In this document: positions 6,451 to 14,502 of the stretch, piece after piece
How the letters are laid out: each line of letters starts with the position of its first letter
Numbering within the stretch: the stretch's first letter is position 1
IMG/VR virus record: IMGVR_UViG_3300017917_002838
Location: 32,001-96,000 of that record
DNA: 64,000 nucleotides
Reading direction: 5' to 3' (one strand)
Source of the DNA: a virus
Translations under genes and position numbers: made by a program
The notes under the pieces: model-generated
Told to the model about the DNA's origin: nothing
The model's database searches: none
The model's input: the letters and a program-made list of their open reading frames with translations, nothing else

Positions 6451-6751
6451 GCTTTTTCCTTAACTGTTTCCATACTACTTCTGTTTTGTGGGTATTTCTA
6501 GCATTGTCTACTGATCCAGAGTTTAAATATACTCCGCCCCAAACTCCGTACTCGTCATTTTCTACTCCAGAGCTATAGCAATTTTTAATTACTGGACAAG
6601 ATAGGCAGCATTGATCTATATTTTTTGCAATATTTATATCAGCTTCATATTTGTCATAAAAAAGATTTGTTTCCATGCCATTACAAATAGCAAGATTCCA
6701 CCAATTAAAATCTTCTGGGTCAAGGCCTAGTTCTTGTAATATAGTCGACAT
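6443..6751 (-). CDS. whiB: WhiB-family Fe-S transcription factor
   Basis: W..AIC...F...CxxCPVxxxC...GVWGG. Confidence 0.92.
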   Translation of the reverse strand: MSTILQELGLDPEDFNWWNLAICNGMETNLFYDKYEADINIAKNIDQCCLSCPVIKNCYSSGVENDEYGVWGGVYLNSGSVDNARNTHKTEVVWKQLRKKHG

Positions 6752-12513: not shown

Positions 12514-12963
12514 CTAATTAATTTCTTTCAATGAATTGATTGTAATTACCCTTGGCTTTTTATCTTCTGGGATTTCTTTTACAATCTTAATAGAAAGTAT
12601 ACCATTCTCCATGTCTGCAGATACTACCTTGCAATGTTCTGCTAGAGCAAAGACTCTTGTAAACTTTCGTTTTGCAATACCGTGATGAACATAAGTTTCT
12701 TCTGTACTTTCTTGTCCACCCTCGATCTTGAGATTTCCATTCTCTTCTACCACTACGATGTCATCCTTAGAAAATCCTGCGAGAGCCATGTCAATAACAT
12801 GTGTATCGTCAGAAATTTTTCTGATGTTATATGGTGGGAAGGTCCCAGAATTAATATGTTTTACGTTTTCTAGTCTTGGCCATAGGTCATTGAATCCAAT
12901 AAAAAATGGATCAGACCAAAAATTAGATGGCAATAGGGAATTGAATTTATCGTATGTAATCAT
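12514..12963 (-). CDS. Small heat-shock protein Hsp20 (IbpA-like)
   Basis: FPPYNI, ALAGF, HHGIAxRxFxRxFxL and ENGIL motifs. Confidence 0.93.
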   Translation of the reverse strand: MITYDKFNSLLPSNFWSDPFFIGFNDLWPRLENVKHINSGTFPPYNIRKISDDTHVIDMALAGFSKDDIVVVEENGNLKIEGGQESTEETYVHHGIAKRKFTRVFALAEHCKVVSADMENGILSIKIVKEIPEDKKPRVITINSLKEIN

Positions 12964-13026
12964 TTATTTCTCCTTTTAAGCGAGTATAGTTGATACCCCC
13001 ATTAGGCGGGTACCAACTATATTATA
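12964..13026 (-). promoter_or_regulatory. hsp20 promoter and ROSE-like 5' UTR
   Basis: TGaTATAAT, a 13-bp inverted repeat (12986-13020), then CUCGCU-UAAA-AGGAG covering the SD. Confidence 0.6.
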
Positions 13027-13033
13027 TCAAATG

Positions 13034-13642
13034 TTACTTCTTTTTAGTAGCTGGCTTTTTAGCTGCTGGCTTTGCTGCTGGCTTTGCAGCAGCTTTTGTA
13101 GTAACTTCTTTCTTCTTTACTGGTGTACCAAATGCTGGTCTTCCAAATCCTACAATTGCTACTGGCTTGCTAGGCATAACCTTAGAGCCGTTCTTTTTCT
13201 TGTAGGCACGACGTTGAAGGCAAACTTCTCCGCCGTTTCTTTGATCTCCAGCCTTAGCTTTTGTTGTATTTCCTTCAATTACCATAACGGTTCCGTCCCC
13301 GTTATCCTTTACAACAATTCCAACGTGAGAAATTCTATCTACGCCGTCTGCTGGAAAGTCAAAGTAGGCAATATCTCCTGGCTGTGGACTCGCTTCTTCC
13401 GCCTTTTGCCAGGTTCCGGCTTTCATAAATGCTTGTGCTCCAGCTGGGGTATACACCGTATTTGGCATCTTTACCTGAGCCTCATTAGCACACCACATAA
13501 CAAAACTTCCACACCATGGTTGGAAATTTGAACCGGTAAATGCACCATATTTTGTTTCGTTATCTTTAGGACCTTCAATAGTTCCTTCTTCTGCAAGCGC
13601 AACTTCTACTAGTCGTGCTGCCGAACCTTGTACTGCTGCCAT
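13034..13642 (-). CDS. CHAP-domain endolysin with Lys/Ala/Pro-rich tail
   Basis: QPWCGSFV, PQPGD, SHVGIV and IEGNT motifs; C-terminal AAKP repeats. Confidence 0.85.
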   Translation of the reverse strand: MAAVQGSAARLVEVALAEEGTIEGPKDNETKYGAFTGSNFQPWCGSFVMWCANEAQVKMPNTVYTPAGAQAFMKAGTWQKAEEASPQPGDIAYFDFPADGVDRISHVGIVVKDNGDGTVMVIEGNTTKAKAGDQRNGGEVCLQRRAYKKKNGSKVMPSKPVAIVGFGRPAFGTPVKKKEVTTKAAAKPAAKPAAKKPATKKK

Positions 13643-13650
13643 TATTCTCC

Positions 13651-14109
13651 TTAGTTACCGTTGATCATAGTCGTTAGAGATGAAGTCATTTTCCATCTCC
13701 ACTTTTCGTGAGCAGTTATTCTATCTGCAAAAAAATTTGCAACGCCTTGCTCTTGAGCATCATTTGCAAGAATAAATGCTTGCTTTAGGTCGTTAATAAT
13801 AATGTCGTTAGAAACAACCAAAGATCTTAACATTTCGATTGGATTATTATCATTCATCGAAAGATCGTATTTTATAGTTGCTGTTCCGGAAATTTTATTG
13901 ACATCAAACTCTGCAAATTGTCTGAATATTCTAATCCATTCAGCGTATTGATCTATAGAATCCCACGCATCATTATAAATATCCGAGAACATTTCATGGA
14001 ATTGATCAAATAAAATTCCTTCTACATTCCAATGATATCCGTGAGCTTTTGTATAATAGACAAATACATTTGCTTGTAAAAGTCTTAATTGTTGCAATAA
14101 AGCTTCCAT
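13651..14109 (-). CDS. dps: Dps/ferritin-like DNA-protection protein
   Basis: KAHGYHWNVEG..F.QFHEMF..IY...D..AE.IR ... HEK..W. Confidence 0.92.
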   Translation of the reverse strand: MEALLQQLRLLQANVFVYYTKAHGYHWNVEGILFDQFHEMFSDIYNDAWDSIDQYAEWIRIFRQFAEFDVNKISGTATIKYDLSMNDNNPIEMLRSLVVSNDIIINDLKQAFILANDAQEQGVANFFADRITAHEKWRWKMTSSLTTMINGN

Positions 14110-14153
14110 TATTAACTCCTAATTAATTTATTATCAAGTATACCATTTGCTTG

Positions 14154-14226
14154 CGCCCTAGGCAAGATTCGAACTTGCGACCAACGGATTAGAAGTCCGC
14201 TACTCTATCCACTGAGCTACTAAGGC
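14154..14226 (-). tRNA. tRNA-Arg(UCU)
   Basis: Cloverleaf with GCCTTAG/CTAGGGC acceptor, anticodon loop CTTCTAA and TTCGAAT T-loop. Confidence 0.93.
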
Positions 14227-14227
14227 G

Positions 14228-14300
14228 TACTTCCAACGGGGTTCGAACCCGCGTTACCGCCGTGAAAGGGCGGCGTCCTAGGCCACTAGACGATGGAAGC
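14228..14300 (-). tRNA. tRNA-Glu(UUC)
   Basis: GCTTCCA/TGGAAGT acceptor, loop CTTTCAC, GGTTCGAAC. Confidence 0.93.
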
Positions 14301-14301
14301 G

Positions 14302-14375
14302 TGGGGCGTGTAGGGCTCGAACCTACGACTACCGGATTATGAGTCCGGGGCTCTAACCAACTGAGCTAACGCCCC
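14302..14375 (-). tRNA. tRNA with CAU anticodon, probably Ile2 (alternatively elongator Met)
   Basis: GGGGCGT/ACGCCCC-A acceptor and loop CTCATAA; G1-C72 is paired, so it is not an initiator. Confidence 0.85.
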
Positions 14376-14380
14376 CAACA

Positions 14381-14475
14381 ACAAAGGCTATCATTTCTGA
14401 TAGCCTTTGTCTATAACTATAACATCCCAAGGTAGCGAGCCCGAATGTAGTAGGTGTTTTGGGGACCCTACTACT
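14381..14475 (-). ncRNA. Putative small RNA: 5' hairpin, core antisense to 23S rRNA H69/H70, 3' GAAA hairpin
   Basis: TAATAT -10 at 14482-14487; 8-bp stem 14447-14474; core 14414-14447; perfect 13-bp stem with GAAA loop at 14381-14410. Confidence 0.6.
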
Positions 14476-14502
14476 TAAAGTATATTACATAAATATTCTA
14501 AA

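What the first reader, a model, noticed from the sequence alone, without database searches (positions are those of the whole stretch)
14381..14487. Phage small RNA antisense to the host 23S rRNA H69/H70 intersubunit bridge
Seen: a non-coding unit on the transcribed strand, made of a -10 box (TAATAT), an 8-bp 5' hairpin, an unpaired core and a perfect 13-bp GAAA-capped hairpin, directly upstream of the tRNAs. On the plus strand the core reads TAACTATAAC-ATCCCAAGGTAGCGA (14414-14438). Established (recalled sequence): 23S rRNA at E. coli positions ~1911-1936 is TAACTATAACGGTCCTAAGGTAGCGA, and the actinobacterial variant is TAACTATAACCATCCTAAGGTAGCGA. The phage differs from the latter by one deleted C and one T>C change. 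In the antisense RNA that change becomes a G-U wobble, which favours the minus strand as functional. The duplex would be 25 bp with one bulge and would cover the H69 loop (bridge B2a, site of the pseudouridines and of RRF/release-factor contacts). Inference: a ribosome-targeting phage RNA that blocks 50S maturation or subunit joining, guides or shields an rRNA cleavage/modification, or protects this site from a host abortive-infection nuclease. I know of no described system like this.
Basis: partly seen in the sequence, partly recalled or inferred. Interest (0 to 1): 0.92.

Follow-up and report, generated by a model that had tools for sequence, protein, structure and literature searches.

The report
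Phage RNA antisense to 23S rRNA
A lake phage of actinobacteria carries, just upstream of its tRNA genes, a conserved non-coding RNA of about 100 bases whose middle can base-pair with about 35 bases of the helix 69-70 region of bacterial 23S ribosomal RNA, so the phage may act on host ribosomes with an RNA; I found no description of this and it is untested.

Summary
On the minus strand at 14376-14487 lie a -10 box, an 8-bp 5' hairpin, a middle of about 39 nt, a 13-bp GAAA hairpin and, 5 nt later, tRNA-Met/Glu/Arg.

The same architecture occurs in about 26 related viral contigs. The hairpins differ in sequence but keep pairing, with compensatory changes and G.U pairs possible only on the minus strand. 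A 25-nt core is 100% identical.

The middle complements real 23S rRNA in two blocks, 1910-1936 and 1964-1972, with helix 71 looped out. It is the only notable rRNA match in the 104.5-kb genome (E 0.009). Predicted duplex energy is -46 to -48 kcal/mol (z about -5). All five variable positions stay paired through wobble.

The phage encodes WhiB, so its host is probably actinobacterial.

No Rfam family or paper matches. Expression could not be tested, the element is missing from two complete close relatives, and sequence diversity is small.

Best reading: a trans-acting RNA that pairs with host 23S rRNA (about 0.45 for a blocking role, about 0.6 for pairing of any kind).

This scan has already noted more than ten other phage RNAs antisense to the same 23S region on other DNA. 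My own scan found at least one further family.

The parts
14482..14487 (-). -10 promoter box (TAATAT; TATAAT in the related contigs)
   Evidence: Sequence. The box sits at the same distance from the 5' hairpin in all 15 distinct upstream sequences, while the DNA further upstream differs. The simple sigma-70 scan did not list it because there is no -35 match.
14447..14474 (-). 5' hairpin: 8 bp (GUAGUAGG / CCUACUAC) with a 12-nt loop
   Evidence: Sequence. The related contigs have a shorter hairpin (GUAGG / CCUAC) of different sequence at the same place. Identity to the L083 type in this segment is only 13/31.
14423..14447 (-). 25-nt invariant core, complementary to 23S 1921-1936 and 1964-1972
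   Evidence: Identical (25/25) between the window type and the L083 type, while the flanks are 42-67% identical.
14439..14447 (-). Block 2: 9 nt complementary to 23S 1964-1972 (8 of 9 pairs)
   Evidence: RNAduplex places it opposite the strand just 3' of helix 71. The chance of a 9-mer matching this well within 60 nt is 0.005.
14414..14438 (-). Block 1: 25 nt complementary to 23S 1911-1936 (H69 loop and 3' strand, start of H70), with one bulged rRNA base near C1920 and one G.U pair
   Evidence: blastn-short against rRNA locus L107: 26 columns, 1 mismatch, 1 gap, E 0.006. Duplex shown.
14409..14422 (-). Spacer facing the H69 loop; predicted mostly unpaired (possible seed)
   Evidence: Mean unpaired probability 0.64 here and 0.68-0.79 in two related contigs.
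14381..14410 (-). 3' hairpin, 13 bp, GAAA loop
   Evidence: 98.7% of cells are paired across 13 sequences, and 4 pairs have compensatory changes. Covariation score is 0.214 against 0.116 in shuffles (0 of 500 reach it). The three G.U cells in the related contigs are possible only on this strand.
14376..14380 (-). 5-nt spacer to the tRNA; the expected RNase P cut would set the RNA's 3' end here (inference)
   Evidence: A 5-nt spacer is also present before tRNA-Arg in the related contigs.
14153..14375 (-). tRNA-Met(CAT), tRNA-Glu(TTC) and tRNA-Arg(TCT), directly downstream on the same strand
   Evidence: ARAGORN and Rfam tRNA at 59-73 bits.

Best explanation
The element is a small non-coding RNA of about 95-100 nt.

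How it is made: it is transcribed from its own -10 promoter on the minus strand, together with the phage tRNAs. It is probably set free when RNase P cuts at the 5' end of the first tRNA (inference).

Shape: two hairpins protect its ends and frame a middle of about 39 nt. Part of that middle is predicted to pair within the RNA; the spacer facing the H69 loop is mostly free.

Target: the middle pairs with host 23S rRNA in two adjoining blocks. Block 1 covers 1910/1911-1936, that is the loop and 3' strand of helix 69 and the start of helix 70. Block 2 covers 1964-1972, the returning strand of helix 70. Helix 71 is looped out between them.

Proposed course (inference): pairing starts at the exposed H69 loop, through the mostly unpaired spacer, and spreads into the stems. 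H69/H70 then cannot form, or are pulled apart, in nascent 23S or in free 50S subunits. Such subunits would fail to mature or to join 30S through bridge B2a.

Shown here: the conserved RNA architecture, the transcribed strand, the complementarity and its conservation. Inferred: transcription, processing, binding and the effect on ribosomes.
For: RNA gene and strand:
- About 26 viral contigs keep the same architecture, always 5 nt before a tRNA.
- The 3' hairpin is 98.7% paired with 4 compensatory pairs.
- G.U pairs in the L084 and L095 types would be A.C mismatches on the other strand.
- The -10 box is conserved while the DNA upstream of it diverges.

Selection on the middle:
- The core is 25/25 identical between the window type and the L083 type, against 13/31, 8/14 and 22/33 in the flanking segments.

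Complementarity:
- It is the only notable match to an rRNA operon in the window and in the whole genome (E 0.006 and 0.009).
- The diverged type hits the same site as its top match: 27 nt, no gap, E 0.004.
- RNAduplex against a 3.1-kb 23S gives -45.3 to -48.0 kcal/mol for four variants, all with the same two-block shape. In 200 shuffles the mean is -33 to -35, none reaches the observed value, and z is -5.1 to -5.3.
- Cofolding of the full RNA with a 120-nt rRNA piece gains -29 to -32 kcal/mol over the separate folds.
- The chance probability of block 2 is 0.005.

Wobble pattern:
- The five variable positions inside the duplex lie opposite G1910, U1915, U1917, U1926 and G1929. Each switches only between a Watson-Crick and a G.U pair (read).
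- Five random sites among 27 would all fall on such positions with p about 0.006 (my hand calculation).

Accessibility: the spacer facing the H69 loop is 64-79% unpaired in the predicted ensemble.

Host: WhiB is present, E 1.4e-11. WhiB is used as a marker of actinophages (PMC10202952, PMC10914622).

The target can be reached by antisense:
- The HGC69a FISH probe binds the same helix (PMC4070681).
- A PNA directed at H69 stops E. coli growth (PMC7038079).

Recurrence: my own scan for the complement of 1923-1940 found other RNA-like elements outside rRNA genes in viral contigs.
Against:
- Only 13 distinct sequences of two types exist, so all the statistics rest on few independent events.
- Two of the five wobble-compatible changes are also explained by an alternative pairing of the L-type 5' end with the core.
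- The core is itself partly paired in the predicted folds.
- The element is absent from two complete close relatives and from 76 other related loci, so it is dispensable.
- In mature ribosomes this region is folded and partly covered, and rRNA is far more abundant than a typical small RNA (established knowledge).
- The energy preference for the Actinomycetes-type H69 is small, and the host's own 23S is unknown.
Confidence: 0.45

Rival explanations
1. The RNA does pair with 23S rRNA, but as a shield or a guide rather than a block. It might hide or present the H69/H70 region to an enzyme. Candidates are a host abortive-infection nuclease of the MazF type, which cuts UUCCU in the H70 loop, or an H69 modification enzyme such as TlyA at C1920. 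It might also make a long duplex that RNase III cuts.
For: - It rests on the same complementarity evidence as the best explanation.
- The looped-out piece, 1937-1963, contains the UUCCU site that MazF-mt6 and MazF-mt3 cut in free 50S subunits of Mycobacterium (PMC5408214).
- The one position that is never paired lies opposite C1920. It is an A.C mismatch in the L type. In the window one rRNA base near C1920 is left bulged; the gap could equally be placed opposite C1921.
- By my recollection C1920 is the TlyA 2'-O-methylation site (TlyA paper: PMC12805891).
- A duplex of 25-27 bp is long enough for RNase III (established knowledge).
Against: - Looping out UUCCU should expose it rather than protect it.
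- No MazF-like, methyltransferase or RNase gene is linked to the element. Its neighbours are small ORFs of unknown family (no Pfam or PHROG match), ferritin/Dps, an endolysin and Hsp20.
- No guide-RNA motifs such as C/D boxes are present in the sequence (read).
Confidence: 0.15
2. The element is only a cis-acting leader of the tRNA transcript: a promoter, structural hairpins for processing or partial termination, and a protein-binding core. The likeness to the rRNA complement would then be a relic or have no function.
For: - It always lies 5 nt upstream of a tRNA, and tRNA-Arg is missing from the fetched flanks of relatives that lack the element (L013, L019).
- The 3' hairpin is followed by a short U-rich tail.
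- The element is dispensable in close relatives.
Against: - A leader role does not explain why the best-conserved 25 nt and the diverged spacer both keep complementarity to one rRNA site in two blocks.
- It does not explain why all five substitutions there are wobble-compatible.
- Other phage tRNAs in related loci have no such leader.
- The terminator scan does not list the hairpin.
Confidence: 0.2
3. The element is a decaying piece of host 23S DNA captured in inverted orientation, or a chance match, with no selection for pairing.
For: - The single-genome E-value is modest (0.006-0.009).
- The window type and the L type descend from one ancestor, so their matches to rRNA are not independent.
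Against: - The core is 25/25 identical while the flanks are 42-67% identical, so it is under selection.
- The 27 nt around helix 71 (1937-1963) are missing, yet both flanking blocks are kept.
- Substitutions are restricted to wobble-compatible sites.
- No other 23S-like sequence is in the genome.
Confidence: 0.07
4. The plus strand or the double-stranded DNA is the active form. It could be an RNA mimic (decoy) of H69/H70, or a DNA site copying the 23S gene target of a homing endonuclease (the I-CeuI site lies here, by my recollection) or of an integrase.
For: The plus strand reads like 23S 1910-1936 followed by 1964-1972.
Against: - The hairpin G.U pairs become A.C mismatches on the plus strand.
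- All neighbouring genes, the tRNAs and the conserved -10 box are on the minus strand.
- The plus-strand copy lacks the 5' strand of H69 and half of H70, so it cannot fold like the original.
- No endonuclease gene was found among the ORFs annotated next to it; integrase genes elsewhere in the genome were not searched for.
Confidence: 0.04

Closest known systems
Trans-acting base-pairing small RNAs of bacteria and phages (seed region plus 3' stem-loop; own knowledge)
   Same: A short stand-alone transcript with its own promoter, a partly unpaired recognition stretch and a stable 3' hairpin. It is presumed to act by Watson-Crick pairing with another RNA.
   Different: The best target is ribosomal RNA, not an mRNA. 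The pairing is about 35 nt in two blocks across a looped-out helix, far longer than a usual seed. The 3' end is probably made by tRNA processing. Actinobacteria have no Hfq (own knowledge).
RNAC and RNAD of phage T4 (PMC3014915)
   Same: Small RNAs encoded in a phage tRNA gene region and made with the tRNAs; their roles are unknown.
   Different: I did not test for sequence or structure relatedness, and no rRNA complementarity is reported for them. The phage and host are different.
Artificial antisense agents against helix 69: the HGC69a FISH probe (PMC4070681) and an anti-H69 PNA (Kulik et al. 2017, cited in PMC7038079)
   Same: They bind the same helix by base pairing. The probe's target overlaps the phage RNA's target by 9 nt (1910-1918). 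The PNA inhibits growth.
   Different: They are man-made, 10-18 nt long and single-block. This element is natural, viral and longer, and reaches into helix 70.
Protein toxins that attack this part of the ribosome: MazF-mt6 and MazF-mt3 at the H70 loop (PMC5408214), Ribocin at H69 (PMC13189344)
   Same: The same small region of the large-subunit rRNA is the point of attack for stopping translation. MazF-mt6 acts on free 50S, not on 70S.
   Different: These are nucleases, not RNAs. No cleavage activity is implied here.
snoRNAs and archaeal guide sRNAs that pair with pre-rRNA (own knowledge)
   Same: A small RNA pairs with rRNA around a functional centre, possibly during ribosome assembly.
   Different: No C/D or H/ACA motifs are present. 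The element is viral, not cellular, and no partner protein is known.
Other phage RNAs antisense to 23S H69/H70 noted by this scan on other DNA, and the L262/L263/L267/L268 elements I found
   Same: A short, RNA-like element in a phage contig that carries the complement of 23S around 1910-1945.
   Different: The architectures differ (5' seed plus terminator, or loop-presented) and the phage groups differ. None has the two-hairpin, tRNA-linked, two-block form seen here. The earlier notes are unpublished AI notes that I did not check one by one.

Membership tests
Any Rfam family (release 15) | Score at or above the family's gathering threshold | tested here: not met
   Only the three tRNAs pass the threshold. 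With a permissive E-value, the best hit over the element is Ysr49 at 15 bits against a threshold of 95.
23S rRNA gene or pseudogene fragment | Match to the LSU rRNA covariance model, or similarity extending beyond a short stretch | tested here: not met
   RF02541 finds nothing in the whole genome. Similarity is limited to 25-27 nt plus 9 nt, and it is on the antisense strand.
Trans-acting base-pairing small RNA | Independent transcript with its own promoter | tested here: inconclusive
   The -10 box is conserved in all 15 distinct upstream sequences. There is no -35 match and no RNA data.
Trans-acting base-pairing small RNA | Accessible recognition stretch whose complementarity to the target is kept in homologues | tested here: met
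   The spacer is 64-79% unpaired. The same 23S site is the top hit in both types. All five variable sites are wobble-compatible.
Trans-acting base-pairing small RNA | Demonstrated pairing with the target and an effect on it | not testable with these tools
   This needs binding and translation assays.
Rho-independent terminator | G+C-rich hairpin followed by a run of at least 5 T in 8 | tested here: not met
   The scan lists no terminator at 14376-14410. The tail has only 3-4 U before the tRNA.
T4 RNAC/RNAD-type small stable RNA | Encoded within a phage tRNA cluster and released by tRNA processing | tested here: inconclusive
   The position is met: 5 nt before tRNA-Met, or before tRNA-Arg in relatives. 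Processing cannot be tested here, and homology to the T4 RNAs was not tested.
C/D-box guide RNA | C box (RUGAUGA) and D box (CUGA) flanking the guide | tested here: not met
   Neither motif pair is present in the window sequence or in the L-type sequences (read).

The most novel reading that the evidence does not exclude
Phages of several unrelated groups have repeatedly evolved small RNAs that base-pair with the helix 69-70 region of host 23S rRNA and so disable or reprogram large ribosomal subunits. This tRNA-linked, two-block form in lake actinophages would be one family of that class.
Probability: 0.4. Interest if true: 0.93.

Novelty: new variant of a known kind. Interest (0 to 1): 0.8.

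Why it matters
Phages are known to take over translation with proteins and with their own tRNAs. I found no description of a natural viral RNA that targets ribosomal RNA by base pairing.

If the pairing is real, it would be a new mode of host takeover. It would be a natural counterpart of the synthetic anti-H69 oligomers now being explored as antibacterials. It would also offer a possible role for small RNAs found in phage tRNA clusters, such as T4 RNAC and RNAD, whose functions are still unknown.

The sequence is short and well defined, so the idea can be tested directly with binding and in vitro translation assays.

Tried and rejected
- Rfam at gathering and at permissive thresholds gave nothing but the tRNAs.
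- A search of cultured phage records with the surrounding 3 kb found only tRNA and terminase similarity, and no close relative.
- A search of phage records with a 126-nt 23S piece returned only rRNA contamination and one weak hit. The 11-nt word size is too coarse for elements like this one.
- A covariance model of the element found no further copy in 76 related loci or in five related genomes. The one hit, L233, is an ordinary terminator hairpin.
- A 16-mer scan of viral contigs added six unrelated chance hits.
- The metagenome scan added only the same L-type variants plus chance hits.
- Exact complements of the Actinomycetes-type H69 (20-mer and 17-mer) are in no viral contig.
- The genome search with 126 nt of DNA was too insensitive: it missed even the element itself.
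There were 0 of 301 matches, so the host-lineage 23S variant stays unknown.
- I looked for a homing endonuclease next to the element. Among the ORFs annotated beside it in three loci there is none.
- A long-range helix between the L-type 5' end and the core is predicted by RNAalifold. It is not kept in the window type, so I do not treat it as part of the conserved structure.

Full report
**What is there.**
The window is part of a complete 104.5-kb uncultured virus with direct terminal repeats and about 35% G+C. Nearly all long ORFs around the finding are on the minus strand. Three tRNA genes, Met, Glu and Arg, lie at 14153-14375 on that strand.

Read on the minus strand, the finding is laid out as follows:
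- TAATAT at 14482-14487.
- An 8-bp hairpin with arms at 14467-14474 and 14447-14454.
- A middle of about 39 nt at 14409-14447.
- A perfect 13-bp hairpin with a GAAA loop at 14381-14410.
- Five bases later, tRNA-Met.

**It is a conserved RNA unit, and the minus strand is the RNA strand.**
The terminase next door has more than 590 relatives in viral contigs at about 80% amino-acid identity. A short-word BLAST of the element against 80 of those loci found a 25-nt stretch kept in three of them. A pattern scan then found 26 viral contigs with it.

All of these have the same layout: a TATAAT box, a short 5' hairpin of different sequence, the core, a 12-15-nt spacer, a 3' hairpin with variable loops, 5 nt, and then tRNA-Arg.

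Between the window type and the L083 type, identity by segment is:
- 5' hairpin: 13/31.
- Core: 25/25.
- Spacer: 8/14.
- 3' hairpin and tail: 22/33.

The 3' hairpin is 98.7% paired across 13 distinct sequences. Four of its pairs changed on both sides. Its covariation score is 0.214 against 0.116 in shuffles, and 0 of 500 shuffles reach it. Its G.U pairs in the L084 and L095 types would be A.C mismatches on the plus strand, so the minus strand is the one that folds.

The -10 box is conserved although the DNA upstream of it differs between lineages. No Rfam family matches.

**The complementarity to 23S rRNA is real.**
That gave me real 23S sequence to work with.
- Against one such rRNA locus (L107), the element is the best match in the window (E 0.006; next best 3.6) and in the whole phage genome (E 0.009).
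- In the diverged L type the same rRNA site is again the top hit, now 27 nt without a gap (E 0.004).
- RNAduplex of the 39-nt middle against the 3.1-kb 23S gives -45.3 to -48.0 kcal/mol for four variants.
- All four give the same structure. Block 1 lies on 1910/1911-1936, block 2 on 1964-1972, and the 27 nt holding helix 71 are looped out.
- In 200 shuffles the mean is -33 to -35 and none reaches the observed value (z -5.1 to -5.3).
- Cofolding the whole RNA with a 120-nt rRNA piece gains 29-32 kcal/mol over the two separate folds.
- Block 2 alone has a chance probability of 0.005.

**The pattern of change.**
Comparing the 13 distinct sequences with the rRNA, five positions inside the duplex vary. 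They lie opposite G1910, U1915, U1917, U1926 and G1929. Each alternates only between a Watson-Crick pair and a G.U pair.
- By my hand calculation, five random sites among 27 would all fall on positions where that is possible with p about 0.006.
- Two of the five (opposite U1926 and G1929) always change together and occur in three different flank lineages.
- Those two are also compatible with an alternative intramolecular helix that RNAalifold predicts for the L type, so they are weaker evidence.
- The one position that never pairs lies opposite C1920. It is an A.C mismatch in the L type. In the window one rRNA base near C1920 is left bulged; the gap could equally be placed opposite C1921.
- The spacer facing the H69 loop is predicted 64-79% unpaired. 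It would be a natural place for pairing to start.

**Host.**
The genome encodes a WhiB protein (E 1.4e-11). Among the 14 control genomes the model matches only Corynebacterium. WhiB is used as a marker for phages of Actinobacteria (PMC10202952, PMC10914622).

The element matches the CCAUCC form of H69 slightly better than the GGUCC form, but the energy difference is only 0.4-1.8 kcal/mol. CCAUCC is not phylum-wide: in a sample of 301 Actinomycetota genomes, 125 showed the site and GGUCC was the commoner form. That tally includes two unpublished genomes, G056 and G096, and no claim here rests on them. The classic FISH probe for Actinobacteria, HGC69a, targets this same helix (PMC4070681). I could not establish the 23S sequence of the actual host.

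**Distribution.**
The element is accessory.
- A covariance model built from it finds no copy in 76 other related loci.
- It finds none in the two complete close relatives of 113 and 107 kb.
- A direct search of those two genomes against the rRNA locus shows no other anti-H69 sequence.
- Gene order around it is conserved: terminase, small ORFs, element, tRNAs, ferritin/Dps, CHAP endolysin, Hsp20.
- No nuclease was found among the annotated neighbouring ORFs.

**Mechanism.**
The most economical reading is a trans-acting RNA that pairs with host 23S rRNA. I think the most likely consequence is that H69 and H70 cannot form, or are opened, in nascent 23S or free 50S, so that subunits fail to mature or to join 30S.
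- H69 is reachable by antisense agents, and blocking it stops growth (PMC4070681, PMC7038079).
- The same region is attacked by protein toxins (PMC5408214, PMC13189344).

A shield or guide role is a sub-variant I cannot exclude. A pure cis-leader role fits the position next to tRNAs, but it does not explain the two-block complementarity or the wobble pattern. A plus-strand or DNA-level role is contradicted by the strand evidence.

Nothing about transcription, binding or effect has been shown.

**Relation to what is known.**
Full-text searches found no description of a phage RNA complementary to 23S rRNA. The nearest described things are:
- ordinary base-pairing small RNAs;
- the T4 RNAC and RNAD RNAs from the tRNA region, whose roles are unknown (PMC3014915);
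- synthetic anti-H69 oligomers.

This scan has, however, already noted more than ten phage RNAs antisense to the same 23S region on other DNA. Those are unchecked AI notes.

As a partial check of my own, I scanned viral contigs for the exact complement of 1923-1940 and found nine contigs:
- Two are true rRNA gene fragments.
- Four (L262, L263, L267, L268) share a different small-RNA-like design: the antisense stretch, then a covarying hairpin with a T-run.
- One presents a 21-nt antisense run between inverted repeats.
- One carries about 36 nt of antisense in a context otherwise unrelated to rRNA.
- One (L264) has a 19-nt run that looks as if it lies in coding sequence.

So the phenomenon recurs in other architectures, which raises my odds that pairing with 23S is the selected function.

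**Verdict.**
I rate the element as a new variant of a known kind: a base-pairing small RNA with an unprecedented target. If the pairing proves functional, the class as a whole would be new biology.

Noticed in passing
L262:997-1014, L263:1360-1377, L267 (minus strand, about 6958), L268:832-849: A different small-RNA-like family in viral contigs. It has an 18-19-nt exact complement of 23S 1923-1940, then about 25 nt, then a G+C-rich hairpin whose arms covary, and a T-run (intrinsic terminator).
   Followed up: partly
L269:1998-2015 and L266 (minus strand, about 4923): L269 has a 21-nt complement of 23S flanked by a short inverted repeat, so the antisense run would sit in a loop. L266 has about 36 nt complementary to 1919-1955, including helix 71, in flanks unrelated to rRNA.
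   Followed up: no
window 14423-14447 and its counterparts in L082-L106: The core exists as two alleles that differ at two positions 3 nt apart (C..G versus T..A). Both alleles occur in three different flank lineages, which suggests recurrent change or recombination.
   Followed up: partly
window 6530-6703, minus strand (G000:38530-38703): A WhiB-family gene (E 1.4e-11) marks the phage as an actinophage. A second, weak WhiB-like match lies at G000:52961-53020.
   Followed up: partly
window 12514-14109, minus strand: Directly after the tRNAs come three host-like genes: a ferritin/Dps-like protein (13651-14109), a CHAP endolysin (13034-13642) and an Hsp20 (12514-12963). The same set follows the element in related contigs.
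   Followed up: partly
G007 (genome of L166): C9:173339-173407 and C12:332745-332813: One Acidimicrobiaceae metagenome-assembled genome holds both the CCATCC and the GGTCC forms of the 23S site on different contigs. This may be bin contamination or two divergent operons.
   Followed up: no
L233 (G001:56397-56432, minus strand): The only covariance-model hit in a complete relative is a plain terminator hairpin after a gene, with no anti-23S sequence.
   Followed up: yes
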